DNA of 64,000 bases, from the NCBI GenBank assembly GCA_963744145.1, contig CAVUSO010000001.1, forward strand, positions 1,440,001 through 1,504,000. Reading direction: 5' to 3'. Shown here in pieces: positions 1,555 to 64,000 of the stretch. The notes beneath the pieces were generated by a model. The model was not told where the DNA came from and did not search any database. It saw nothing but the letters and a program-made list of their open reading frames with translations. This DNA comes from an uncultured cyanobacterium. Lineage in GTDB: Bacteria; Cyanobacteriota; Cyanobacteriia; Cyanobacteriales; CAWUOF01. Position 1 is the stretch's first letter. The number at the start of each line of letters is the position of its first letter. The position numbers were made by a program, and so were the translations under genes.

Positions 1555-3960
1555 TTATAGCAAACTTCTAATCTCGATTAATTTATCTAGATATTGCTGA
1601 AGATCAATTTTATCTTTTTCTAATCTCTGTCGAATTTCAATAGTTTCTACTTCTCTTGTTTCTCGTTCTTTCAACAATTGATCAAACTTGGTTTGAAAAT
1701 TATTAATGTAATTATTAATTTGGTCTTCAGCATTTTTAAAATCTTCTGACATTTGTTTTTCAATGACATTTTTTAACAAAACTTTAATTTGCGCTACTTG
1801 GGGATCTATTTTTGACGTTATTTCTTGTTTTATTCTGTTCAAATCAATCTCATAATAGTCAACGGTTTCTTCATAATGAACCTCGACTTCAGTCAATATA
1901 TCATCATTACAGCAACGCTTTTCACGGTTGAATTCTTTGCGCGTTCTCCAGAAAACTTCCTGCTGTTTTAAAACTTGGGCATCGATCCCCGTAAATTGAA
2001 ATCTGGGAAATTGGATTTGACTATTATTCAGTTCTATTCGTAGACTTTGTCCTAAATAGTTAGAAAGCTCTTTGGAAATAGATTGGGTAGTCTGCTGAAT
2101 TTCTTGGACAAGTTTCTCTCTAATTTCTGTTCCATCTCGGACAAGCTTATCTTGGGTATCTAACCACCAGGTCTGAATCACAGGAGCGCAGTATTTATTT
2201 ATTGTATCTACAATTTTATCAGCATCATCGCGGTTATTAACTCTAATTTTGTAAGGATCTGAACTACGATTTCCAGTAAAATCATCAAAGATTTTTTTTA
2301 AATGATCTAATAAGCTATCTGACGATGAATCAGGATTTTGCTTATTCTCACTATTGGCAACCCGGTCGATCTCTATACCAATATTCTTTTTAGCTTCTTG
2401 AGCAAATTGCTTAATTCCGCGATTAAATCCATCAATTAGGTTACCTTTTTCCTTTTTAAGAGACTTGTTTATGTTTTCTACTTCTTTTTTGGCGATATCA
2501 GCGCGTTTCCTATATCCCTGTACTGTACTTTTGAGAGTTTCAAGTTCCGTTTCCCATCCTCGGATTTCTGTATTTAACATATCCTCTATAGATTGGGCGC
2601 TTTTCTCTATTTTTGCCAATACATCATTTAGCAGATTCCAACCGGAGTTCTGAACTACTTTTTGAATCACTGAATTTTCGATCTTGGGAATACCACTTTC
2701 TGGTAAAGCTTGTTCAGCAGCTTCAGCATCTTCCAACAAGATTCTCTTCCCATTTGGATCTGTTATAATCAGATAACGTCCAAAGTTATTTTGAAAATCC
2801 TCTTTATCTTGCTGAATTGCTGTTTGATTAAGAATTAATTTAGATAACAATCCTTGTAAAGCACTAACAGGATAAATATTTGGGTTGGGAATACCAAAAT
2901 CAATCAAAATTTTTCTTAAATCATTAATAACATCGTCAATAGCTCGATCACGAACTTGCTTTCTATCAATTTTATTCAGAATAAAAAAGATTTTACCCTG
3001 GTCACTAATCAAAGAATCTTTTCGTTCCTTTAAGATTTTAATCAATTCGGAATTAGTCTGATCTTTAAAAGAAGAATAATCTAATATAAATAAAATAACA
3101 TCACAAGTTCGCAGCGATTCCAAGGCAGTTTTCTTCAAGATAGTGGTATCAAAATTAGCAGATTGCCATTCATTAGGTCCAGGAGTATCTACCAAAGTAA
3201 ACCCTGTCAAGGAAGAAAAATTACTGATTGCTTCAATCGGATATTGAAGTTCAAATCTAGTGGTGCGATCGCGATTGTTGGTGGCTCGTATTTCGTGGGT
3301 ACGTTCTAAAAATTTCTGCTTAATTATCTGGGCATTTCCCTCCACAAGTACCGAAGGTTTTTTATGCGCTTCTCGATATTCCAGCAGTTTGGGAGTTGCT
3401 GAAGTAGCGATCGGACGAATATCGGTGCGACAGACAGTACAAGCTTCAGATTCACTAGCTAGTACATCAGCACCTATGATCGCATTGAGAAAGGTACTTT
3501 TACCTGCTTTCATTGCTGCAATCACAGCCACTTGATATTTTTGCTCTTTCAAAGCTGTTAAAGCTTGAGTTAAATCTTCTTCAATACTTTGGAATTCCTT
3601 AGTTTTATTTCCCTCCTTTAATCGTCCACTTCTAAATTCTTTAATGTACTGTAAAAGACAAGTACCAGTTTCAGAAAGACGGTTATATGCTCGTTGAAAT
3701 TGTTCAGAAGGTTTTGCTGGATCAGACTGGGGAGAATTAGTCATCATATTTAACAATCGGTCTAGTTGTACTTTTTGATCTTGATACTTAAGCCAAATCT
3801 GCTTTGCCCAAAACAGTTTTGCTCGTTCCTTCTCCAAAAAAGCTTCCGGTAATTGTCCAGGAAACGTTAGGGGATAGGAAGTCAAATCCCATTCACAGAC
3901 AGAACAAAAATTGACCTGAGCTTCAATAAATTCAGTTTGACAAACTGGACAATTAGCCAC
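1555..3960 (-). CDS. Dynamin-like GTPase with N-terminal zinc ribbon and helical/coiled-coil C-terminus
   Basis: G1 AAMKAGKST, G3 DTPG, G4 NKID; N-terminal CPVC...CSVC. Start placed at GTG 3960 behind an AGTAGGT RBS-like sequence (the track starts at 4014, overlapping the upstream gene). Confidence 0.88.
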   Translation of the reverse strand: MANCPVCQTEFIEAQVNFCSVCEWDLTSYPLTFPGQLPEAFLEKERAKLFWAKQIWLKYQDQKVQLDRLLNMMTNSPQSDPAKPSEQFQRAYNRLSETGTCLLQYIKEFRSGRLKEGNKTKEFQSIEEDLTQALTALKEQKYQVAVIAAMKAGKSTFLNAIIGADVLASESEACTVCRTDIRPIATSATPKLLEYREAHKKPSVLVEGNAQIIKQKFLERTHEIRATNNRDRTTRFELQYPIEAISNFSSLTGFTLVDTPGPNEWQSANFDTTILKKTALESLRTCDVILFILDYSSFKDQTNSELIKILKERKDSLISDQGKIFFILNKIDRKQVRDRAIDDVINDLRKILIDFGIPNPNIYPVSALQGLLSKLILNQTAIQQDKEDFQNNFGRYLIITDPNGKRILLEDAEAAEQALPESGIPKIENSVIQKVVQNSGWNLLNDVLAKIEKSAQSIEDMLNTEIRGWETELETLKSTVQGYRKRADIAKKEVENINKSLKKEKGNLIDGFNRGIKQFAQEAKKNIGIEIDRVANSENKQNPDSSSDSLLDHLKKIFDDFTGNRSSDPYKIRVNNRDDADKIVDTINKYCAPVIQTWWLDTQDKLVRDGTEIREKLVQEIQQTTQSISKELSNYLGQSLRIELNNSQIQFPRFQFTGIDAQVLKQQEVFWRTRKEFNREKRCCNDDILTEVEVHYEETVDYYEIDLNRIKQEITSKIDPQVAQIKVLLKNVIEKQMSEDFKNAEDQINNYINNFQTKFDQLLKERETREVETIEIRQRLEKDKIDLQQYLDKLIEIRSLL

Positions 3961-3994
3961 ACCTACTCTCACTAAGAAATTAGTTGACAATCTT

Positions 3995-5500
3995 TTAAGA
4001 AGATATCTTACCAAATTGTTCCGGTTTAACCTGCCGTCCTTTCACTTTCTCTATATTCTGATATTCCTGTCTTGCCTGTGGATTACATTCTAGCGGTCTA
4101 CCCTGTACCCCTTCTTCCTTCAAAGCATCAAAAATAGCGTCAGCATTGTCTTTTGTAGCTTTCTCATCTACTATAGTTTGACTAAATGTGTTAATCGAAA
4201 CCGAGTTGGCTCCAAATTCTTTCTCTGGACTAATTATGGTGACCACTTCATCACCAGCTATATTTTTTACCTTGACTACATAAGCATTTCTTTGGTCATC
4301 ACCTTCATAAACAGCGTCAGATTCTCTATTCTCAAGATTGTATCCCAATGACTCAAGCGTTTCTACAATTCTGTCGGCAATTTCCACCCGCAATTGCGAG
4401 CCTAATATTGTTAGTTTTGCCTGTTCGACAATTTCTCCTAGTTTTGGTTGTAAAGCAGTTATTTTTTCTCCTAACTCCTTCAGTTGTTCAATGGTAAGCG
4501 TCGATTCACCAGTTTTTAATTGCGATTCCAACTGCTGCAATTGTTCTGCATACTGGCTCAAGCGACCATTAACCCAGTAATCTACTTCCAATTGAAATTT
4601 CTCAGCCTCATTACCCTGACCAACTTCAATTTCGCATTGTCGATTAGCTTGTACTTCAGTAATTAAAGTTTTTAAATCCTCCAATGCAGCACTATAAAGT
4701 AACAACCATTCTTGCTCTTTTTGTTCCAATTCCAACCGTAAATCTGCCAAATCTAAATAAGTTTGTTGAGTTGTGGCGATCGCTGCTTCAGTGACACCAG
4801 CTTGGATATTAGTTCGAGCTATTTCCAATCCCCTACGCAAATCTGCCAAACGTCCAGGAGCAAATCGCTCATGTTGGTAATCCCGATTAATTTGTGACCA
4901 AACTGTTTCTACATCTGCAAGTAACTCTTTAGCTATCTGTGCTTTTCGCTGTTTTTCCTGTACAAGGTCTGTCACCACCTGATCAATCTGCTGCTGAAGA
5001 ATTTGTTGTCCCTGTTCTCTTGCTTGCCGTTCCTCTCCAATCAACTGAGTAAATTTTTGGTCTTGTTGTTTAATTAATCGGGTATATTCCTGCCGTTGTT
5101 CAGAGGTAATTCGCAAATATTCACTACGTTGCTGCTCAAACCCTTGACGCATAGCCGATTCTAAACGATTTGTCTCTCGCTCTAACGCCTGTTGTTGACG
5201 ATACTCGGTCTCACGTACTGCTGTTTGAAATTCTTCTCGTTGTTTCTGCAAACGCTTTTGGGTGTTTTTTTCTGTATCGGCTAGACTGCTTCTGAGTTTC
5301 TGTGTTTCTTGTTCCTGCTGTCGAGCGCGTTGTTCTAAAGGTGCTAAACGTTGCTGAAACTCTTGCCGTGCTTGCTCTCTAACTGCATTCAACCGCTCTG
5401 GTAAATCCTGTTGTACAGACCGTAATCGGCTCTCCTGTTCCCGGAGTCGTCGCAACTCTTGGTCTTCAACCTGGACATACCGTCGTTTTTCGCCACTCAT
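3995..5500 (-). CDS. Uncharacterised coiled-coil protein with small alpha/beta C-terminal domain
   Basis: 501-aa ORF; Q/E/R-rich heptad pattern over most of its length; co-oriented directly upstream of the dynamin gene. Confidence 0.8.
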   Translation of the reverse strand: MSGEKRRYVQVEDQELRRLREQESRLRSVQQDLPERLNAVREQARQEFQQRLAPLEQRARQQEQETQKLRSSLADTEKNTQKRLQKQREEFQTAVRETEYRQQQALERETNRLESAMRQGFEQQRSEYLRITSEQRQEYTRLIKQQDQKFTQLIGEERQAREQGQQILQQQIDQVVTDLVQEKQRKAQIAKELLADVETVWSQINRDYQHERFAPGRLADLRRGLEIARTNIQAGVTEAAIATTQQTYLDLADLRLELEQKEQEWLLLYSAALEDLKTLITEVQANRQCEIEVGQGNEAEKFQLEVDYWVNGRLSQYAEQLQQLESQLKTGESTLTIEQLKELGEKITALQPKLGEIVEQAKLTILGSQLRVEIADRIVETLESLGYNLENRESDAVYEGDDQRNAYVVKVKNIAGDEVVTIISPEKEFGANSVSINTFSQTIVDEKATKDNADAIFDALKEEGVQGRPLECNPQARQEYQNIEKVKGRQVKPEQFGKISS

Positions 5501-56615: not shown

Positions 56616-57368
56616 TTACTTATTTACTGATATTAGTTTGACTTGGGTTCGTAAAAAACTGATTTCTGATGGTTTGAGAAAACGATAATGCCCACTCGGC
56701 AAATCTGCCAATGGAATTGGACCGATGGCGGTACGATGTAAGGTTAACACTGGATATCCTAGTTGTTCAGCGACTCTTCTAATTTGTCGATTTCTTCCCT
56801 CTTGTAAAACTACTTCTAAAAGTGTTTGACAATCGGGATGCCATTTTAACACTTTGACTTTGGCTGGTAAGGTTTTTCTGCCAGATAAGACAATTCCTTG
56901 ACGCCATTGTGCCAAGATTAATTCGGGTGGGTTGCCCTTAATCCACACCTGATAGGTTTTGGGGATCTGATGACGGGGATGGGTCAAATAAAAGGTGAGA
57001 TCGCCATCATTGGTCAGGAGTAATGCACCCGTAGATTCAGCATCTAAGCGTCCAACCGGATGTAATCCCTCTCCTTGGCTGAAGTTGGACGGGAGAAGGT
57101 CTAAAACAGTAGTTCGCTGCTGTGGATCTTTACAGGTCGAAACTACCCCAGCGGGTTTGTGCAGTAAAAGATAGATCAGATGAGGTCGATTGGACTGATT
57201 GATCAGCTTACCATCGACTTCGATTCGATCCTTGTCTGGATCGGCTTTTTGCCCCAAGCCAACTACTGTGCCATTTAATCTCACTCGTCCTGCCAGGATC
57301 ATTTGTTCGGCTTGACGACGTGAGGCAATGCCCCATTGCGATAAGATTTTTTGCAGCCTTTCATCCAT
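56616..57368 (-). CDS. rRNA pseudouridine synthase (RsuA/RluB family)
   Basis: [17 protein letters not shown]4 domain, [18 protein letters not shown]. Confidence 0.93.
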
Positions 57369-57635
57369 TGAGTGACTGCTGTGTATATTTCTAGGTCGGT
57401 TAATTTCAAACTTAATTTTGCCATTAATTCAGAAAATTTGTGTAAAAACATTACACTTTTTTTGGCGATGACGATCGCCCAACTGTCCCAGCCGTGATTA
57501 GGGTGGACTAATTAAATCAGAAATTGGCTGGCGTAATCCAGGACTTTACTTCCCGAATTAATATAAATATAGCATAAATTTTGTGAAGCAAGTACGGGTT
57601 ATATTGCACTTGCTTGTTCGATTGAGTCGTCAGCA

Positions 57636-58154
57636 ATGGACAGGGATGCAGAGATTGAAGGAAATTATCGCTATTTATTAGGTCGGATGTGGAATCCCCA
57701 AACTCCAAGAGTTGTTTTTGTGATGCTTAACCCCAGTACAGCGGATCATCGCCATGATGACAAGACGCTGAAAAAATGTATTCATTTTGCCCAATCTTGG
57801 GGTTACGGTTCCCTCGATGTCGTTAATTTGTTTGCTTATCGTACCTCTAACCCGGGTGAGCTACATCAAGTGCCAGATCCTGTAGGTGCAAAGAATAACT
57901 ACTATATTGTCAAAGGAATCAACCGTGCTGAGAAAATTGTGTTAGCATGGGGTAATCACGGTAATTTTGGACAGCGCGATCAAGAAGTTTTACAACTAAT
58001 TTCTGGGCAATTAATTTTTGAGCATAAGCCTGTCTACTGTCTGGGTTATACAAAGTTAGGAAATCCACGTCACCCACGCGATCTTCCTCTAAATAGTTCT
58101 CTGGTTCCTTTTGCCATGCCACTATTCCAGTTAGTGCTCAATTTAGAAATATAA
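57636..58154 (+). CDS. DUF1643 family protein
   Basis: YRYLL.R.W, MLNPSTAD, DD.T, WGYG...NLFAYR, LAWG, PRHP. Confidence 0.85.
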   Translation: MDRDAEIEGNYRYLLGRMWNPQTPRVVFVMLNPSTADHRHDDKTLKKCIHFAQSWGYGSLDVVNLFAYRTSNPGELHQVPDPVGAKNNYYIVKGINRAEKIVLAWGNHGNFGQRDQEVLQLISGQLIFEHKPVYCLGYTKLGNPRHPRDLPLNSSLVPFAMPLFQLVLNLEI

Positions 58155-58242
58155 GGTAAATCTAAGTGCGATCGCTTTATATTATATGATATAATGGTAA
58201 ACTGTTCTTTAGTGAGCCGACGGTTATTGGCCATATTTATTT

Positions 58243-59220
58243 ATGCAAAAAAGACCAGAAATTTTTGAGATCTACTGGAAATTTGCGGCCTGGCGGCAAG
58301 AAGTTTTTTTTAAGAAAATGAAAAATATGCCTCGTCCTTGGACAGAGGATAATATTATCAATACCTATAAATTTTGTAATGCTTATCGAGCCAGCGATCG
58401 CGTTTCCCAATATTTAATCAAACAGGTTATTTATCAAGGTAATTATAATGAAGAAGATATTATTTTTAGAATTTTGTTATTTAAAATATTTAACAAAATC
58501 GAGACTTGGCAATTATTAGAAAGTAAATTAGGTGATATTACTTTAGCTGAGTTTAATTTTGATACCTATTGTGATTTACTCCAAGCAGCACTAGATGCAA
58601 ATATGGTAATTTATACCAGTGCTTATACATCCTGCCCCACTAAATATTTTGGCTATGATAAAAAACATGAAAATCATCTCGCTTTAATTAGAAATATGGT
58701 GCAGGAACAACCAATTTTCAGCAAGATCATTACAGCTAAAAGTTTTAAAGAGGTTTACCAGACTTTGCTTAATTATCCATTAATTGGCAAATTTATGGCT
58801 TATCAACTAGCAACGGATATTAACTATAGTGAAGTGATCAATTTTGATGAAAATACATTTACGATCGCTGGTCCAGGTGCGGAACGTGGAATTAGTAAAT
58901 GTTTTAGTAATTTAGGAGGTAAAAATCATGCTGATGTGATCCAGTGGATGACGGAAAACCAACATGAGCAATTTCAAAGTCTCGGGATTAATTTTCAAAG
59001 TCTCTGGGGTCTTCCTCTCAAAGCGATCGATTGTCAAAATCTGTTTTGTGAGGTAGATAAATACTGTCGAGTAGCTTTTCCTGAACTGAAAAGTAATCGG
59101 ACCAAAATCAAAGCAAAATTTACTGCTAATCCGACACCAATTGACTATTTTTATCCTCCCAAATGGAAGATCAATGAAAAGGTTCAAGTAACTCTAGCGA
59201 CTAGATTACCTTCAGGATAA
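58243..59220 (+). CDS. aGPT-Pplase1-like putative DNA base hypermodification protein (HhH-glycosylase-like fold)
   Basis: YWKFAAWRQ, PWTED, YKFCNAYRASDRVSQYLI, FKIFNKIETW, IGKFMAYQLATDINY, GPGA.RG, DCQNLFCEVDKY.RV. Confidence 0.78.
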   Translation: MQKRPEIFEIYWKFAAWRQEVFFKKMKNMPRPWTEDNIINTYKFCNAYRASDRVSQYLIKQVIYQGNYNEEDIIFRILLFKIFNKIETWQLLESKLGDITLAEFNFDTYCDLLQAALDANMVIYTSAYTSCPTKYFGYDKKHENHLALIRNMVQEQPIFSKIITAKSFKEVYQTLLNYPLIGKFMAYQLATDINYSEVINFDENTFTIAGPGAERGISKCFSNLGGKNHADVIQWMTENQHEQFQSLGINFQSLWGLPLKAIDCQNLFCEVDKYCRVAFPELKSNRTKIKAKFTANPTPIDYFYPPKWKINEKVQVTLATRLPSG

Positions 59221-59270
59221 ATCCTGCTCAAAACTAACTAAAATCAGAGCAAGTAGGTAGGAAACCTACA

Positions 59271-59288
59271 GTTAACTGAACCCTATTG
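59271..59288. repeat. Solo right end of the 27406-type MITE
   Basis: GTTAACTGAACCCTATTG vs GTTAACTGAACTGTATTG (16/18), both preceded by CCTAC(A/G). Confidence 0.6.
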
Positions 59289-59462
59289 AATTATATATCG
59301 GTTAATCCTCATTAAGAAATAGCAGAAAATTTTTGCCAGTAACCCGATTTGTGGATGTGAGTTGGATGGTGAAAATAATTAACGAATAAACTTTAATAAA
59401 CCTTAACCTTTTCTCAAGCGAGAGCTGGTTAAAATATTGGTGTAGTATATAAATTTTTATCT

Positions 59463-62054
59463 ATGCCTCAGACTTTATATAAGAAAATATTATCATTACT
59501 CATATTAAGCACTCTGATTCCAGCTTCGACGATTGGAATGTATGGAATCTTTTCTTCAACTCAAGCAATATATGAAGTAAATATCAATCGGATTAAGAAG
59601 CAGAATAATGACAAAGTCAAAGATATTGAAGCATTTCTCAATAATACTGACCAAGATTTGCGTTTTTTAATGTCAACTCCTGCTTTGGAAGAATTAACTA
59701 GACTAGGTGTATATCAAGCACCTCAGTCACAGTCAAATAATTATCAAGATGTTCTCAGAAGAGCAAATCAGATTGCGAAAGGACTAATGCGCACGACTCC
59801 TGGTTACAAGACTATTCGCTATGTTGATGCTCATGGTCATGAAATGATGCGGGTTGAGCTAGTCGATCATAAATCTTTTGCGATCGCAGATGAAAACCTA
59901 AAAGATCAGAAAAACTCAATTTATTTTCAGGAAGCACGACAGCTAAAACCTGATCAAGTATATATTTCACCTGTGGTTTTTGAACCTAGTTCTGAAGAGA
60001 TTAAAACTCAGCCACCCGTTAAAGTCAACACCAGTGATAGCAATTCTATTCATCCTGTTCTCTACTATGAAATGGCATTTTTTAATCAATCAGGTGCTTT
60101 GACAGGTGCAGCGGTTATTACTTTAGATTTATCAGCGCTCAGAAATCTGCTAGAAAGTTCAAAAATAGACAAAAATTATACCTATTTGATTGATTCATCA
60201 GGTCGTTATCTATTTAATTCTCCTCGCCAGGCTCAAGGTAATATCAAACAAGTTTATCCAGAAAAAATAGTTAATGACATACTTTCAATGCCAGAAAGTG
60301 TAATTAAAGTCAATCAACAGGAAATTATTAGCTCCCAAAATATTGCGAGTAATACTAATCATAAATTAGTGATTTTCCAAGTATCTAGTACCGATATTGT
60401 GCTTGCTCCAATTAATTCTTTTATTTTAGTGGCAATAGCTGTAATTGTTGGTTCATTAGGAATAGTATTAATGGCTGGGATTCCCATATTAAGGAGAATT
60501 GCTAAGTACCAAAATCAGTTGTACGATCAAATTCAAAATGTAGCCGCGATCGCTACAAAAAAAGCGGAGGAATTAGCAGAAACTCTCAAAGTTAATTCTA
60601 CTCTAACTGAACACCTTCAATCCGCCAAAGAAGCTGCGGAAGTTGCCAATCAAGCTAAAAGTGAATTCTTAGCTAATATGAGTCATGAGTTACGCACTCC
60701 TCTCAACGGTATTCTCGGTTATGCCCAAATTCTCCAACGAGCAAAAGAACTAACTCCTAAACATCGCAAAGGGATTGATATTATTGAACAAGCAGGTTCT
60801 CATTTACTGACTTTAATTAACGATATTCTCGATTTGTCAAAAATTGAAGCCGGAAAAATGGAATTATTGCCAAGAGATTTTCACTTAGGTGCATTTTTAA
60901 GTGGGATTGCTGAACTTAATCGTGTTCGGGCTGAAAGTAAAGGAATTAACTTTTATTATCTGCCTGACCCAGAAATGCCCACTGGAGCAATAGCTGATGA
61001 AAAAAGGTTAAGGCAAGTTTTAATTAATTTAGTAGGAAATGCGGTAAAGTTTACCGATCGCGGTCATGTAACTCTAGAAACAAAAGTGCTAGAAAAACAA
61101 CCAAAAGAAGTGATGGTTCGGTTTACGATCACAGATACAGGAGTCGGGATGAAACCAGAACACATTGCTAATATTTTCCTTCCTTTTGAACAGGTGGGTT
61201 CAAATTCTAAACGAACAGAAGGAACAGGACTAGGTCTGACGATTTGTACAAAAATTGTGCAAATGATGGGTAGCAAAATTGAACTGACTAGCAATTATGG
61301 TCAAGGTAGTAAATTTTGGCTTGATCTCAAGTTAGGAATTTCGACGGAATGGATTAGTGCTGCTAGTTATAGTAACAAAGGTACTATTATTGGCTATAGT
61401 GGTGAACCAAAAAAATTATTAGTAGTCGATGATAAAGAAGTAAATCGAGAAGTTTTGGTAGAAGTATTAAGACCTTTAGGATTTGTAATAGAACAAGCAG
61501 AAAACGGTGCAGAAGCATTAGAAAAAACCCGCTCTTTTCAGCCAGATTTAATCATTACTGATATTGCTATGCCCGTGATGGATGGTTATGATTTTACCCG
61601 GGAAGTGCGGAGTTTATATTCAGAAAAAATTCCGATCATTGCTTGTTCGGCTAGTGTTTCCTCTAGTGACAAAGATTTAGCGATCGCTGCTGGATGTAAT
61701 GATTTTATTCCCAAACCAGTGGAAATGGAAATTTTATTCCTAATCTTAGAAAAATATTTGCAAATCCAATGGAATTATGATGTCAATCATTCGACTTCGA
61801 GTAGGACCCAGGAGCAGTCAACCAAGGTGCCAGTTCAAGAGATGGTTTTTCCAACTTCAGCAGAGCTCAATAAGTTATATGAAGCGAGCCGGATTGGTGA
61901 TATTGATATGATCAAAAGTGAAGCTGAAAGATTATCACAAAGTAACCCACAATATCAGCCTTTTACTGATCGAATTATTGAACTTGCTGACCAATTTGAT
62001 GATGTTGGGATTATTCAAATGATTAAGTCGATTATAAATTCAGAAATAACGTAG
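59463..62054 (+). CDS. Hybrid sensor histidine kinase (Cache-like periplasmic domain, HisKA, HATPase, REC)
   Basis: Two TMs; [49 protein letters not shown]. Confidence 0.93.
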   Translation: MPQTLYKKILSLLILSTLIPASTIGMYGIFSSTQAIYEVNINRIKKQNNDKVKDIEAFLNNTDQDLRFLMSTPALEELTRLGVYQAPQSQSNNYQDVLRRANQIAKGLMRTTPGYKTIRYVDAHGHEMMRVELVDHKSFAIADENLKDQKNSIYFQEARQLKPDQVYISPVVFEPSSEEIKTQPPVKVNTSDSNSIHPVLYYEMAFFNQSGALTGAAVITLDLSALRNLLESSKIDKNYTYLIDSSGRYLFNSPRQAQGNIKQVYPEKIVNDILSMPESVIKVNQQEIISSQNIASNTNHKLVIFQVSSTDIVLAPINSFILVAIAVIVGSLGIVLMAGIPILRRIAKYQNQLYDQIQNVAAIATKKAEELAETLKVNSTLTEHLQSAKEAAEVANQAKSEFLANMSHELRTPLNGILGYAQILQRAKELTPKHRKGIDIIEQAGSHLLTLINDILDLSKIEAGKMELLPRDFHLGAFLSGIAELNRVRAESKGINFYYLPDPEMPTGAIADEKRLRQVLINLVGNAVKFTDRGHVTLETKVLEKQPKEVMVRFTITDTGVGMKPEHIANIFLPFEQVGSNSKRTEGTGLGLTICTKIVQMMGSKIELTSNYGQGSKFWLDLKLGISTEWISAASYSNKGTIIGYSGEPKKLLVVDDKEVNREVLVEVLRPLGFVIEQAENGAEALEKTRSFQPDLIITDIAMPVMDGYDFTREVRSLYSEKIPIIACSASVSSSDKDLAIAAGCNDFIPKPVEMEILFLILEKYLQIQWNYDVNHSTSSRTQEQSTKVPVQEMVFPTSAELNKLYEASRIGDIDMIKSEAERLSQSNPQYQPFTDRIIELADQFDDVGIIQMIKSIINSEIT

Positions 62055-62497: not shown

Positions 62498-64000
62498 ATG
62501 TTAAAAAATTTTCATAACAAATTGCTATTATTGTTAGTATTAAGCACTATTATTCCTGCCGCTACAGTTGGAATATATGGGATTATTTCTTCAACCCAAT
62601 CAATATATGAGCTAAATATAAATCGAATTAAAAAACAGAACGATAATAAAATCAAGGATATTGAAGCAGTTCTATTAAATACCGAACAAGATATACATTT
62701 TGTCATCGCGACTCCAGCATTTAGTGATGATCTAACTCAATTAAATACATATCAAGCACTTCAACTACAGACAGATATTTATAAAACTTTTACAGCCAGA
62801 GCAAATAAGCTTGTTAAAGGATTAATGGTAACAACTGAGGCTTATAAAAGCATTAGTTATATTGATACAAATGGTCAAGAAATGCTCTGCGTTGAACGCA
62901 TCAATGAAAGCCCTGAACCCCTACCAGATAACCAGCTTAAAAATTGGAAAAATTCAGCTTATTTCCAAGAAGCTCTGAAGCTGAAACCTAACGAATTATA
63001 TATATCACCGATTATATTGGAAACAAGTAAAACAGGTCAGAAAATTTCTATTAACCCTATAATTTACTATGCAATAGCAGCTTTTAATAGTTCCGGTGTG
63101 CTGAAGGGAATTACTGTTATTACTTTGCAAATATCATCTTTTGAAAAGTTTTTAGAGACAGCCAACCTAGAACAAAATAGTATTTATTTACTTGATTCAT
63201 TAGGCCATTACCTCCTAAACTCTCCTAGCAAAACTCAAGGTGAAATTAAGCAGGTTTATTCAGAAAATATAGTTAATCAAATTCTTAATAATGATGAAAA
63301 TATAATTTTTTCTGGTGAAAAAGAAATAATTAGTTCTAAAAAGATTGTGGTTAATAATAATCCGGTATTCATAATTTTACAATCATTTTCGACCAAGGAT
63401 GTGGTTACTGCTGTGAGTTGGTTTACGTTTGTAGCAGTTGCGGTAATTTGTGGTTCTTTAGGAATAGTTTTAATCATTGGAATTCCCACCTTGGTGAGAA
63501 TTGCACGTAACCAAGATAATTTATATGATCAAATAAAAGCTTCAGCTGCGATCGCGACAGCTAAAGCGGAAGAATTAGCAGAAACCTTAAAAATTAACTC
63601 GGCACTATCAGATAGCTTGAAACTAGCCAAAGAAGCAGCAGAAGTTGCGAACCAAGCTAAAAGTGACTTTCTGGCTAATATGAGCCATGAATTACGCACT
63701 CCTCTGAATGGGATACTTGGTTATACCCAAATCCTCCAAAGAGCTAAAGATTTGGCTCCACAATACCGTAAAGGTATAGATGTTATTGAAAAAGCAGGTA
63801 CTCATTTACTAACTTTAATTAATGATATTCTTGATCTTTCTAAAATAGAAGCTGGCAAAATGGAATTTTTTCCCAAAAATTTCCATCTCGGTTCTTTTTT
63901 GAGTGGGATAGTCGAAATTAATCGTGTAAATGCAGAAAACAAAGGAATCAAATTCTATTACCTTCCTGACCCAGAAATGCCTAGGGGAGTCTACACCGAT
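62498..64000 (+). CDS. Paralogous Cache-like sensor histidine kinase (truncated by window end)
   Basis: Absent from the ORF track. [49 protein letters not shown]...[22 protein letters not shown]...; start and last codon are in the same frame. Confidence 0.9.

What the first reader, a model, noticed from the sequence alone, without database searches (positions are those of the whole stretch)
57636..59220. Orphan DNA-hypermodification-type gene (aGPT-Pplase1-like) paired with DUF1643
Seen: two co-oriented genes 88 bp apart among housekeeping genes. No thymidylate synthase/hydroxymethylase, nucleotide kinase or phage genes lie in the window. Known: aGPT-Pplase families act in phage thymidine hypermodification downstream of 5hmdU synthesis and kinase steps, and DUF1643 is uncharacterised as far as I know. 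Inference: without a supply pathway, the pair may recognise or process modified or damaged bases in incoming or host DNA (defence or repair), or the pathway partners lie elsewhere.
Basis: partly seen in the sequence, partly recalled or inferred. Interest (0 to 1): 0.7.

Follow-up and report, generated by a model that had tools for sequence, protein, structure and literature searches.

The report
Cyanobacterial DUF1643 plus thymine-modification-type gene pair
Two neighbouring genes in a cyanobacterium are a conserved, sometimes fused pair related to the genes phages use to alter thymine in DNA; they are not orphans, because a phage-type hydroxymethyl-uracil-making enzyme and a small kinase lie just beyond the window, and this genome oddly lacks the usual genes for making thymidine.

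Summary
Both genes are real and intact: 57636-58154 is DUF1643 (PF07799) and 58243-59220 is PF18723, now called HMUDK_hel and formerly aGPT-Pplase1. They lie 88 bp apart on the + strand.

The pairing is not chance:
- 6 of 9 PF18723-bearing genomes in a 301-genome phylum sample have DUF1643 within about 1 kb.
- 15 of 23 cyanobacterial PF18723 loci carry it, against 0 of 57 loci from other phyla.
- One relative fuses the two into a 630-aa protein.

"Orphan" is wrong. About 7.4 kb downstream, 2.6 kb past the window end, lie a thymidylate-kinase-like P-loop gene and a 595-aa fusion (TS-X). TS-X joins a SPO1/SP10-type dUMP-hydroxymethylase-like domain to a SPO1 gp30-like domain. A relative has the same genes contiguous.

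PF18723 folds like HhH DNA glycosylases and the phage glycinyltransferase gp46. DUF1643 is an alpha/beta protein whose UDG likeness stays unproven.

The closest known system is the validated E. coli anti-phage system DS-4.

Unexplained: this genome has no ThyA, ThyX, thymidylate kinase or thymidine kinase.

Verdict: a new cyanobacterial variant of a known but mechanistically unsolved module.

The parts
57636..58154 (+). DUF1643 gene (172 aa), an alpha/beta protein and possible UDG-like glycosylase.
   Evidence: ORF. PF07799 E 6e-46 and phrog_3230 E 3.4e-50. AF2 model has pLDDT 92.7. It carries all 19 invariant residues of a 50-sequence alignment, but has R148/D149 where 90% or more of sequences have L/Y, plus a 5-residue insert. 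It is the single copy in the genome.
58155..58242 (.). 88-bp spacer between the two genes.
   Evidence: Sequence read; it holds a GCGATCGC palindrome. One weak hairpin-plus-T site lies at 58216-58231, but the count is not above shuffled expectation. Whether the genes are co-transcribed is not shown.
58243..59220 (+). PF18723 gene (HMUDK_hel, formerly aGPT-Pplase1; 325 aa), with an HhH DNA-glycosylase-like fold.
59463..62054 (+). Hybrid histidine kinase (863 aa) lying between the pair and its presumed partners. Membership in the module is doubtful.
   Evidence: dCache/HisKA/HATPase_c/Response_reg domains; GC 0.36. No counterpart sits at this place in G003, where the module genes are contiguous.
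62498..64000 (+). Second, paralogous hybrid histidine kinase (847 aa), cut by the window end. Membership is doubtful. Beyond it, outside the window, lie three genes: a 244-aa unknown (C1:1505249-1505983, minus strand); an AAA_28 / thymidylate-kinase-like gene (C1:1505980-1506546, minus strand); and TS-X (C1:1506618-1508405, plus strand).
   Evidence: These genome coordinates equal the L013 coordinates plus 1497000.

Best explanation
The two genes form a functional pair that acts on DNA (or nucleotides). They belong to a horizontally acquired, phage-derived module built around uracil substituted at position 5.

The parts are:
- The PF18723 protein is a helix-hairpin-helix, DNA-glycosylase-fold protein. 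It is the same domain that is fused to the P-loop kinase in the validated 5-hmdU DNA kinase of phage SP10. It sits beside the kinase and the dUMP hydroxymethylase in phage PaMx11.
- DUF1643 is a small alpha/beta protein. Its conserved residues lie at the C-terminal ends of its parallel strands.
- A dUMP-hydroxymethylase-like enzyme fused to a SPO1 gp30-like domain (TS-X) and a thymidylate-kinase-like P-loop protein lie 5-8 kb downstream.

Most likely working, all of it inferred:
1. TS-X makes 5-hydroxymethyl-dUMP from dUMP.
2. The small kinase carries it towards the triphosphate, or phosphorylates the base once it is in DNA.
3. The PF18723 protein flips the altered uracil out of DNA and attacks it through its conserved Cys-Glu site.
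4. DUF1643 works on the same substrate, perhaps removing uracil or 5-hydroxymethyluracil as a glycosylase.

By analogy with the E. coli system DS-4 and with the repressor/protease-controlled cassettes that carry this family in other phyla, the likeliest biological role is anti-phage defence: poisoning or marking replicating phage DNA.

What is shown: gene identity, folds, conserved residues, recurrence of the pairing and one fusion, and synteny of the partners. What is inferred: every enzymatic step and the defence role.
For: The pair is real and its pairing recurs.
- establish the genes.
- In a 301-genome phylum sample, 9 genomes have PF18723 and 56 have DUF1643; 6 of the 9 have the two within about 1 kb on the same strand.
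- DUF1643 lies in 15 of 80 PF18723 loci from public genomes. All 15 are among the 23 loci whose titles name cyanobacteria; 0 of the other 57 have it.
- Four arrangements exist: PF18723 then DUF1643 (Nostocales); DUF1643 convergent after MazG (5 loci and G058); a fusion (G003, 630 aa, HMUDK_hel 65-346 plus DUF1643 468-604); and the reversed order seen here.

Partners.
- The genome's only PF00303 gene is 7.4 kb downstream.
- Its residues 4-360 match the SPO1 gp29 and SP10 dUMP hydroxymethylases (29-32% identity, E 9e-47 and 6e-45). E. coli ThyA matches over only 118 residues (E 2e-11).
- Residues 318-493 match SPO1 gp30 (E 1e-12).
- It shares the 'PCN', 'FSDDG' and 'RSND..WG' motifs and the helical C-extension of the hydroxymethylases.
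- The top 25 of 1966 phage records with a match are the Glutamicibacter phage Montesquieu ('thymidylate synthase/pyrimidine hydroxymethylase') and large Bacillus and Lysinibacillus phages of the SPO1/SP-10 kind. Four are annotated as dUMP hydroxymethylase: SP-10 (AB605730), SPO1 by its note, and Montesquieu as hydroxymethylase.
- The adjacent divergent gene matches phrog_2107 'thymidylate kinase' (E 8.5e-11).
- G003 has the same genes contiguous, with identities of 70.5/66.5% (PF18723), 51% (DUF1643), 68% (kinase-like) and 65% (TS-X).

Family context.
- SP10 gp186, listed as a 5-hmdU DNA kinase in PMC8989533 Table 1 (passages read), carries PF18723 at residues 303-596 (E 2e-20).
- PaMx11 gp50, between kinase gp49 and TS-like gp51, is PF18723 (hhalign 99.7%).
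- Across the 80 loci, a kinase is fused or adjacent in 50, MazG/MazG_C-like in 48, Peptidase_M78 in 38, HTH in 33, dCTP-deaminase-like in 21 and TS-like in 13.
- DS-4 (TS, dNMP kinase, PF18723, TIR/NDT-like, Nmad2) is listed as validated and replicated in DefensePredictor Table S8.

Fold and site.
- Invariant residues include G210/G212/G216 in an 'AGPGAxRG' stretch, and D263, E270 and K273. C269 is near-invariant.
- hhalign places C269 on gp46 Cys247, a residue that turns to the target nucleoside in PMC11472151 (passages read).

Island signal: GC falls to 0.33-0.36 from the PF18723 gene through TS-X.
Against: - No activity, expression or phenotype was tested. No RNA run is on record, so transcription is unknown.
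- Two histidine-kinase genes (5.6 kb) separate the pair from TS-X and the kinase-like gene. The shared order with G003 may be common descent within one order rather than selection.
- G025 has TS-X without PF18723, DUF1643 or the kinase-like gene. Five genomes have the pair without TS-X. The two halves are therefore separable.
- TS-X is the only thymidylate-synthase-family gene of this genome, and canonical Tmk is missing. TS-X and the kinase-like gene may simply be this organism's housekeeping thymidylate enzymes.
- The kinase-like protein resembles the PF18723-associated kinases only at the Walker A motif (33 columns).
- The genome lacks the DS-4 parts Nmad2 and MazG_C, and the locus has no HTH/M78 switch. 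Neither of those two genome searches had a positive control ring.
- PADLOC gives no hit.
- The alignment of C269 to gp46 Cys247 has an hhalign probability of only 3.3%.
- DUF1643's glycosylase nature is unproven: hhalign against two cyanobacterial UDG alignments gave probabilities of 0.5% and 0.3%, no better than controls, and the structure matches are generic.
- In vitro, the clade 1 proteins (M6 gp55) were dispensable for phage hypermodification (PMC8989533).
Confidence: 0.5

Rival explanations
1. Self-directed thymidine pathway replacement or self-DNA modification. On this reading the island supplies the cell's own pyrimidine route. TS-X and the kinase-like protein stand in for the missing ThyA/ThyX and Tmk. 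They act either as a true thymidylate synthase and dTMP kinase, or as a dUMP hydroxymethylase and 5hmdUMP kinase that put 5hmU (or a derivative) into the organism's own DNA. The PF18723 protein and DUF1643 then serve the host genome as they would a SPO1/SP10-type phage genome: recognition or phosphorylation of 5hmU in DNA, and removal of misincorporated dU.
For: - The genome has no ThyX, no canonical ThyA or X-TS-DUF4346 type, no Tmk and no thymidine kinase.
- Among 60 relatives, 33 have ThyX and 23 others match with a roughly 500-520-aa X-TS type. The two sets do not overlap.
- In 27 genomes, the 3 without PF02223 are exactly the 3 with TS-X: G000, G003 and G025.
- G001, of the same family as G000, still shows the X-TS type and a Tmk fragment.
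- In G003 the housekeeping-type TS gene sits between the kinase-like gene and TS-X.
- T-modifying phages need a UDG to remove dU, and they carry dCTP deaminase, a dUTPase and a TS homologue (PMC13697223, passages read).
Against: - G003 and G025 keep a housekeeping-type TS beside TS-X, so TS-X is not generally a replacement.
- G025 lacks the kinase-like gene, though that genome is only 92% complete.
- The pair occurs in 5 of 5 checked genomes that keep Tmk and lack TS-X, so the pair does not depend on this route.
- No PF18748 DNA kinase or aGPT-Pplase2 transferase was found.
- As far as I recall, no free-living bacterium is known to replace T by 5hmU.
- The assembly may be a metagenome bin: one soil-metagenome run holds 0.72 of the sampled words, and completeness is 96.3%.
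Confidence: 0.2
2. Reduced two-gene remnant, unrelated to TS-X. On this reading the pair is what is left of the Nostocales-type cassette (PF18723, DUF1643, MazG-MazG_C, dCTP-deaminase-like) after loss of the nucleotide-pool enzymes. Its nearness to TS-X is inherited synteny or chance. It may act alone, for example as a sensor or processor of modified phage DNA, or it may be functionally idle.
For: - The closest homologues (68-72% identity) are in cassettes with MazG-MazG_C and a DCD-like gene. This genome has no MazG_C match.
- The gene order is reversed relative to those cassettes, and the roughly 65-aa tail is missing.
- DUF1643 here departs from two near-invariant residues.
- Two histidine-kinase genes separate the pair from TS-X.
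Against: - Both ORFs are intact with all invariant residues, and both fold with high confidence.
- G003 has the same short 326-aa form, so the missing tail is a natural variant.
- No remnant of deleted genes lies in the flanks.
- The association of PF18723 with TS-like, kinase and dCTP-deaminase-like genes across phyla makes the nearby TS-X and kinase-like genes unlikely bystanders.
Confidence: 0.2
3. Base-excision repair pair. On this reading the two glycosylase-like proteins remove oxidised thymine (5hmU), uracil or similar lesions from the host's own DNA as ordinary repair enzymes.
For: - The PF18723 protein has an HhH glycosylase-like fold.
- In phage PA8, DUF1643 sits in a replication/recombination gene block.
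Against: - The distribution is patchy, unlike core repair genes: PF18723 is in 4 of 61 relatives and 9 of 301 in the phylum.
- The stretch has low GC, like an acquired island.
- The genome already has a UDG-family gene.
- Family contexts are mobile or defence-like rather than repair operons.
Confidence: 0.1

Closest known systems
DS-4 (working id NTTI), an E. coli anti-phage system from DefensePredictor (PMC13092281). I read passages and supplementary Table S8 rows.
   Same: DS-4 contains a PF18723 protein (340 aa, HMUDK_hel 27-324), a thymidylate-synthase-fold protein (361 aa) and a small dNMP kinase (185 aa). This genome has the same three kinds of protein within 10 kb.
   Different: DS-4 adds a TIR/NDT-like protein and Nmad2. 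Neither is at this locus, and Nmad2 was not found in the genome, although that search had no positive control ring. Here DUF1643 is the partner. The TS-fold protein is a 595-aa fusion with a gp30-like domain, and the parts are split by two histidine-kinase genes. The mechanism of DS-4 is not given in the passages I read.
Thymidine-hypermodification clusters of phages SP10, PaMx11, M6 and ViI (PMC5889632, PMC8989533, PMC11472151; passages read).
   Same: SP10 has, in order, gp186 (kinase plus PF18723), gp188 (dUMP hydroxymethylase) and gp189 (gp30-like). PaMx11 has gp49 (kinase), gp50 (PF18723) and gp51 (TS-like). The cyanobacterial genes match each of these parts.
   Different: No aGPT-Pplase2-type amino-acid:DNA transferase, no PF18748 kinase and no PLP, radical-SAM or FAD enzymes were found. 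The setting is a chromosome, not a phage. The clade 1 protein has no assigned activity in the phage work: M6 gp55 was dispensable in vitro.
Nostocales and other cyanobacterial PF18723-DUF1643-MazG/MazG_C cassettes. These are unnamed; I saw them here in loci L020-L032, L053, L062, L070, L073, L079 and G058.
   Same: The same two families are adjacent, with 68-72% identity for PF18723 and up to 62% for DUF1643.
   Different: Those cassettes have MazG-MazG_C, often a dCTP-deaminase-like gene, and in non-Nostocales forms an HTH/Peptidase_M78 front end. This locus has none of these, a reversed gene order and a shorter PF18723 protein.
Uracil-DNA glycosylase superfamily, including the UDG domains fused to DNA polymerases of T-modified phages (PMC13697223; passages read).
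   Same: DUF1643 is a three-layer alpha/beta protein. Its invariant 'NPS' follows the first core strand, an invariant Asn ends the next strand ('VVNLF'), and 'P-x-H-P' follows the last strand. From recall, this placement resembles UDG motifs A and B. UDG-type chains give its longest structural alignments.
QNG1 / DUF2419 queuosine-5'-monophosphate glycosylase (PDB 7ugk, 7u91).
   Different: Sequence identity is 8-12%, with no sequence-level match. The substrate and context are different. Its main lesson is that PF18723 proteins could act on nucleotides rather than on DNA.

Membership tests
Pfam PF18723 (HMUDK_hel, formerly aGPT-Pplase1) | Full-length match to the family profile above the curated cut-off. 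| tested here: met
   353.8 bits against a cut-off of 25; profile 2-280 of 281.
Pfam PF18723 (HMUDK_hel, formerly aGPT-Pplase1) | The family's conserved residues: the AGPGAxRG stretch, D263, C269-E270 and K273. | tested here: met
   All 18 invariant columns and the near-invariant C269 of a 32-sequence alignment are present.
Pfam PF18723 (HMUDK_hel, formerly aGPT-Pplase1) | Helix-hairpin-helix DNA-glycosylase-like fold. | tested here: met
[quoted passage not shown] | A P-loop kinase domain (PF18748 or Thymidylate_kin-like), fused or adjacent. | tested here: not met
   The 325-aa protein has no kinase domain. No PF18748 match was found in the genome, though no positive control rang. tblastn with PaMx11 gp49 gave only E 0.009 elsewhere in the genome. 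The nearest P-loop gene is about 6.8 kb away and resembles the family's kinases only at Walker A.
Phage thymidine-hypermodification pathway | dUMP hydroxymethylase. | tested here: inconclusive
   TS-X matches the SPO1 gp29 and SP10 hydroxymethylases (E 9e-47 and 6e-45) and shares their motifs. Its activity is untested, and it is the genome's only TS-fold gene.
Phage thymidine-hypermodification pathway | aGPT-Pplase2-type amino-acid:DNA transferase. | tested here: not met
   tblastn with PaMx11 gp46 against the whole genome gave no hit at E 0.01 or better. This was a single query, so distant forms could be missed.
Pfam PF07799 (DUF1643) | Full-length profile match and the family's invariant residues. 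| tested here: met
   156.3 bits against a cut-off of 22.5; profile 1-133 of 134. All 19 invariant columns are present. Two near-invariant positions differ (L148R, Y149D).
Uracil-DNA glycosylase superfamily | UDG fold with motifs A and B, detectable by profile or structure. | tested here: inconclusive
DS-4 anti-phage system (DefensePredictor) | A TS-fold protein, a dNMP kinase and a PF18723 protein in one unit. | tested here: inconclusive
   All three kinds are present within 10 kb, but they are split by two histidine-kinase genes and lie on both strands. They are contiguous in G003.
DS-4 anti-phage system (DefensePredictor) | TIR/NDT-like protein and Nmad2. | tested here: not met
   Neither is among the ORFs of L013. 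There was no Nmad2 match in the genome, though no positive control rang. TIR was not searched genome-wide.
DS-4 anti-phage system (DefensePredictor) | Protection against phage. | not testable with these tools
   This needs a phage challenge in a laboratory host.

The most novel reading that the evidence does not exclude
This cyanobacterium runs its thymidine supply through a phage-type route. Having lost ThyA/ThyX, thymidylate kinase and thymidine kinase, it uses the SPO1/SP10-like dUMP hydroxymethylase fusion (TS-X) and the small kinase beside it. Its own DNA would then carry 5-hydroxymethyluracil, or a base derived from it, in place of some or all thymine. In that case the DUF1643/PF18723 pair is the DNA-level part of a cellular thymine-replacement system: it would recognise or process 5hmU and remove misincorporated dU. 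That would be the first such system outside phages, dinoflagellates and kinetoplastids. A milder form of the same reading is that TS-X and the kinase-like protein are non-orthologous replacements for both thymidylate synthase and thymidylate kinase.
Probability: 0.1. Interest if true: 0.95.

Novelty: new variant of a known kind. Interest (0 to 1): 0.6.

Why it matters
PF18723 proteins sit in phage thymine-hypermodification clusters and in a defence system validated in 2026, yet no activity has been assigned to them.

- **A new handle on the chemistry.** A conserved and sometimes fused partner (DUF1643), limited to cyanobacteria in the loci I examined, suggests that two base-flipping, glycosylase-like proteins work on one substrate. 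It also gives a testable pair for biochemistry.
- **A clue to an old phage gene.** The fusion of a dUMP-hydroxymethylase-like domain to a SPO1 gp30-like domain links gp30, an old 'DNA replication' gene of unknown function, to hydroxymethyl-dUMP metabolism.
- **A puzzle in core metabolism.** This genome lacks every recognisable thymidylate synthase, thymidylate kinase and thymidine kinase apart from these phage-type genes. That means either a double non-orthologous displacement in core metabolism or a modified-thymine genome. One mass-spectrometry run would settle it.

Tried and rejected
- **Complex prediction.** Complex prediction for the two proteins could not be run: the queue was full or the call was too early. 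Physical binding is therefore untested.
- **Sequence searches against solved structures.**
  - DUF1643 alone gave nothing meaningful; its 50-sequence profile gave a best E of 0.33.
  - PF18723 gave no match.
  - The kinase-like protein gave a best E of 0.32, to adenylate kinase.
  - The 244-aa protein gave nothing.
- **ESM Atlas.** No usable hit for DUF1643. For the TS-X C-terminus there were only weak leads, at score 0.75: TS-fusion clusters and DUF1599 on 16% of members.
- **Pfam at E up to 1** on the TS-X C-terminal pieces and the 244-aa protein: no family. My guess that the gp30-like part is a MazG-type all-alpha pyrophosphatase rests on recall only and was dropped.
- **NCBIfam and PADLOC:** no hits for either gene.
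- **Expression.** No RNA holder is listed; there is one DNA run (a soil metagenome) with 0.72 of the words. I did not lay reads.
- **Promoter/terminator scan of 57300-59520:** counts at or below the shuffles.
- **Deletion scars.** I looked for a deleted first PF18723 domain upstream of DUF1643 and for the missing 65-aa tail. Neither was found.
- **Is the TS-X C-terminus the missing thymidylate kinase?** No: it has no P-loop motif, and hhalign against Tmk gave 0.5%.
- **A weak Tmk-like tblastn hit** at C1:1177173-1177742 is adenylate kinase by its sequence.
- **The first search for related loci attempt,** with the 32-sequence alignment, failed because no stretch was conserved enough. I repeated it with 9 sequences.
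- **Papers not held.** Iyer et al. 2013 and Burroughs et al. 2015. They may describe these associations.
Full report
**1. Observation**

- The first is DUF1643 (PF07799, E 6e-46). The second is PF18723 (E 9.1e-106).
- JGI and some phage records still name homologues 'alpha-glutamyl/putrescinyl thymine pyrophosphorylase clade 1' (P0061, P0094; H19, H21).
- PHROGs places both genes in phage families of unknown function. NCBIfam and PADLOC give nothing.
- Each gene is single-copy in the 7.7-Mb, four-contig genome.
- Upstream are a pseudouridine synthase and a RodZ-like gene. The 499-aa ORF before them looks like a 4-alpha-glucanotransferase, but that is my reading of the sequence and was not scanned.

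**2. The pairing is conserved**

- In a 301-genome sample of the phylum, PF18723 occurs in 9 genomes and DUF1643 in 56. In 6 of the 9 the two lie within about 1 kb on the same strand: G000, G116, G180, G247, G272 and G278. The exceptions are G011, G277 and G282, the last on a 2.7-kb-scale contig.
- Among 80 PF18723 loci fetched from public genomes, a DUF1643 profile hits 15. All 15 are among the 23 loci whose record titles name cyanobacteria; 0 of the other 57 are hit.
- The arrangement varies:
  - PF18723 followed by DUF1643 and then MazG-MazG_C, in Nostocales.
  - DUF1643 on the opposite strand after MazG, in five other cyanobacterial loci and G058.
  - DUF1643 before PF18723, in this window.
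  - A single 630-aa fusion in relative G003 (HMUDK_hel 65-346, DUF1643 468-604), followed by a second, 326-aa PF18723 gene.
- Several arrangements plus a fusion argue for a functional link, not just inherited order. Most DUF1643 genes (50 of 56 genomes) stand without PF18723, so the dependence is one-sided.

**3. The pair is not an orphan**

The genome's only PF00303 match lies at C1:1506645-1507394, 2.6 kb beyond the window end. The stretch after the pair reads as follows:

| Gene | Size | Strand | Identity |
|---|---|---|---|
| Hybrid histidine kinase 1 | 863 aa | + | dCache/HisKA/HATPase_c/Response_reg |
| Hybrid histidine kinase 2 | 847 aa | + | paralogue of kinase 1 |
| Unknown | 244 aa | - | weak phrog_274 only |
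| AAA_28 P-loop gene | 188 aa | - | phrog_2107 'thymidylate kinase', E 8.5e-11 |
| TS-X | 595 aa | +, divergent from the P-loop gene | TS-fold fusion |

On TS-X:
- Residues 4-360 align with the dUMP hydroxymethylases of SPO1 (gp29, so annotated in the record) and SP10 (29-32% identity, E 9e-47 and 6e-45).
- Residues 318-493 align with SPO1 gp30 and its SP10 counterpart (E 1e-12).
- E. coli ThyA aligns over only 118 residues (E 2e-11).
- In a multiple alignment TS-X shares 'PCN' (ThyA has PCH), 'FSDDG' (ThyA has IWDEWAD), 'RSND..WG' and a helical C-extension with the phage enzymes and with the TS-like genes next to PF18723 in other phyla. It lacks the ThyA C-terminus.
- Of 1966 phage records with a match, the best 25 are a Glutamicibacter phage 'thymidylate synthase/pyrimidine hydroxymethylase' and SPO1/SP-10-type Bacillus and Lysinibacillus phages.

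In G003 the same genes are contiguous: fusion, second PF18723, two small ORFs, AAA_28 (68% identical), a 508-aa X-TS-PterinBD_DUF4346 protein, and TS-X (65%).

GC falls from 0.42-0.45 upstream to 0.33-0.36 from the PF18723 gene through TS-X, against a genome mean of 0.394.

**4. What the family does elsewhere**

- SP10 gp186, listed as a 5-hmdU DNA kinase in PMC8989533 (Table 1, passage read), carries PF18723 at residues 303-596.
- PaMx11 gp50, between kinase gp49 and TS-like gp51, is PF18723 (hhalign 99.7%).
- Representative proteins show these architectures: Thymidylate_kin plus PF18723; PF18723 plus MazG and MazG_C; and fusions with MT-A70, N6_N4_Mtase plus NADAR, DUF4326 and Chromo.
- Across the 80 loci a recurrent operon reads: 99-aa unknown, HTH_3, Peptidase_M78 (IrrE-like), 270-aa unknown, (kinase-)PF18723, then MazG-MazG_C or a TS-like gene or a radical-SAM gene. 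An ACPS-like and a dCTP-deaminase-like gene often follow, and sometimes ThsB-TIR plus Nmad2.
- Counts out of 80: kinase 50, MazG-like 48, 270-aa unknown 42, M78 38, HTH 33, 99-aa unknown 25, DCD-like 21, ACPS 14, TS-like 13, Nmad2 10, TIR 9, radical SAM 7.
- DefensePredictor (PMC13092281; passages and Table S8 rows read) lists the validated, replicated E. coli system DS-4: TS (361 aa), dNMP kinase (185 aa), PF18723 protein (340 aa), TIR/NDT-like (163 aa) and Nmad2 (220 aa). Its supplementary tables also list DUF1643 proteins among predicted, unvalidated defence genes.
- Its Fig. 6F legend names aGPT-Pplase, MazG, MazG-C and UDG among predicted systems. The figure itself is not held, so I cannot say whether a PF18723 plus UDG-like pair is drawn there.
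- In the phage work the clade 1 protein was not needed: M6 reactions without gp55 still gave product (PMC8989533).

**5. Folds and sites**

The PF18723 model is confident (pLDDT 94.8).
- Foldseek gives only weak E-values, but nearly all the top rows are HhH glycosylases.
- Invariant residues in 32 sequences include G210/G212/G216 ('AGPGAxRG') and D263, E270 and K273. C269 is near-invariant ('FCExDKY'). All are present here.
- hhalign puts C269 on gp46 Cys247 (probability only 3.3%). Cys247 turns to the target nucleoside in the gp46-DNA structure, and that paper proposes a covalent cysteine mechanism (PMC11472151).
- PMC8989533 reports an essential Cys and neighbouring Glu in clade 2.
- That PF18723 uses the same chemistry is my inference.

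The DUF1643 model is also confident (pLDDT 92.7), but it has no clear structural neighbour.
- Foldseek's best E is 2.8e-3, to alpha/beta hydrolases, with a UDG (5gn2_A) at rank 23.
- Profile comparison with two cyanobacterial UDG alignments is at noise level: 0.5% and 0.3%, with controls at 0.1-0.7%.
- What the sequence and model do show is that the invariant residues sit at the C-terminal ends of the parallel strands: N32-P33 after strand 25-30, N64 at the end of strand 59-64, W105-G106 after strand 100-104, and P144/H146/P147 after strand 133-135. The likeness of this layout to UDG motifs A and B is from recall.
- The window's protein departs from two near-invariant residues (L148R, Y149D) and has a 5-residue insert.

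**6. An unexplained genome-level finding**

- The genome has no ThyX and no other ThyA-type gene. That includes the roughly 510-aa X-TS-DUF4346 form. My own tblastn with E. coli ThyA, two cyanobacterial ThyX proteins and the G003 X-TS protein found only TS-X.
- Among 60 relatives, 33 have ThyX and 23 others match with the X-TS form. The two sets do not overlap, and 4 show neither with these queries.
- The genome also lacks thymidylate kinase. PF02223 gave no match with 45 candidates scored. tblastn with three cyanobacterial Tmk proteins gave a best E of 0.055, and the one long weak hit is adenylate kinase.
- It lacks thymidine kinase too.
- In 27 genomes the three without PF02223 are exactly G000, G003 and G025, the only three with TS-X. 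These three belong to three different families, but they are kin, so this is no formal test.
- TS-X is rare: 3 of 61 relatives, and 1 of 301 in the phylum sample.
- Five genomes with the PF18723/DUF1643 pair but no TS-X all keep Tmk. The loss therefore goes with TS-X, not with the pair.
- The kinase-like gene has an orthologue in G003 but not in G025, G001 or G018.
- Either TS-X and its neighbour have displaced the canonical enzymes, or the organism's thymidine chemistry is unusual. Assembly gaps (96.3% completeness, possibly a metagenome bin) are a third possibility.

**7. Reading**

- I rate it likely (about 0.85) that the two genes work together, and probable (about 0.65) that they belong with TS-X and the kinase-like gene.
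- A defence role by analogy with DS-4 is about even odds. The individual enzymatic steps are inference.
- Rivals are a self-directed thymidine route or self-DNA modification, a reduced remnant unrelated to TS-X, and plain repair.

**8. Novelty**

- Full-text searches for 'DUF1643' gave 14 papers; from their listings and abstract starts, none concerns this pairing.
- Searches for aGPT-Pplase/HMUDK terms gave 19 papers. Searches for MazG-C/Nmad2/HMUDK_hel terms gave 11 papers. Neither showed a description of a PF18723-DUF1643 pair or fusion.
- Iyer 2013 and Burroughs 2015 could not be read, and Fig. 6F of DefensePredictor is not held.
- Earlier notes of this scan found the same family on other DNA and also named DS-4 as closest. 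One of them is a cyanobacterial module beside thymidine-precursor genes (e1-3353294). None of the eight DUF1643 notes shown mentions this pairing.

Noticed in passing
Whole genome G000 (outside the window).: Apart from the phage-type TS-X and its kinase-like neighbour, the genome has no recognisable thymidylate synthase (ThyA, ThyX or X-TS-DUF4346 type), no thymidylate kinase (PF02223) and no thymidine kinase (PF00265). In 27 relatives, the 3 genomes without PF02223 are exactly the 3 with TS-X.
   Followed up: partly
G000:C1:1506618-1508405 (TS-X), residues 107-138; also C1:4345574-4345681.: TS-X of this genome carries a 32-residue insert made of about four 'GFDSAQxx'-type octapeptide repeats, in a loop where the G003 and G025 orthologues have none. 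A 36-residue stretch that is 61% identical occurs elsewhere in the genome.
   Followed up: no
TS-X residues 318-493; L137 (SPO1) 3342-4022; L138 (SP10) 4141-4590.: The dUMP-hydroxymethylase-like domain is fused to a homologue of SPO1 gp30 / SP10_189. These are annotated only as 'DNA replication' proteins and lie next to the hydroxymethylase gene in both phages. The fusion hints that gp30 works with the hydroxymethylase.
   Followed up: partly
window:59463-62054 and 62498-64000 (continues to about 65041).: Two tandem, paralogous low-GC hybrid histidine kinases (863 and 847 aa, with dCache sensor and receiver domains) sit between the pair and its presumed partners. G003 has no counterpart at that place.
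   Followed up: no
Loci L035-L099 (many phyla).: A widespread operon reads: 99-aa unknown, HTH_3, Peptidase_M78/IrrE-like, 270-aa unknown, (kinase-)PF18723, then MazG-MazG_C or TS-like or radical SAM, then ACPS-like and dCTP-deaminase-like genes. The two unknowns have no Pfam or PHROG match.
   Followed up: partly
P0237, P0241, P0259 (protein representatives).: PF18723 domains are fused to a C-terminal Chromo domain, an architecture that looks eukaryotic. Others are fused to MT-A70, or to NADAR plus N6_N4_Mtase.
   Followed up: no
G000:C1:1505249-1505983 (244-aa ORF, minus strand, overlapping the stop of the kinase-like gene).: An unknown protein apparently co-transcribed with the kinase-like gene. 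Its only lead is a weak match to phrog_274 'DNA endonuclease V' (E 2.8e-4). It has no counterpart in G003 or G025.
   Followed up: partly
Relatives G002, G004, G008, G019, G027, G030, G038, G040, G044, G054, G060; L010:16879-17937.: ThyX matches in many relatives are split into two pieces (profile 1-85 and 86-191) about 1 kb apart inside ORFs of 440-694 aa, as if interrupted by an intein. The dCTP deaminase of G003 carries an intein splicing domain.
   Followed up: no
L139 (Pseudomonas phage PA8) 6977-7465.: DUF1643 occurs in 151 phage records. In PA8 it lies in a block with PolC-type exonuclease, SSB and RdgC genes, which fits a DNA-acting role.
   Followed up: no
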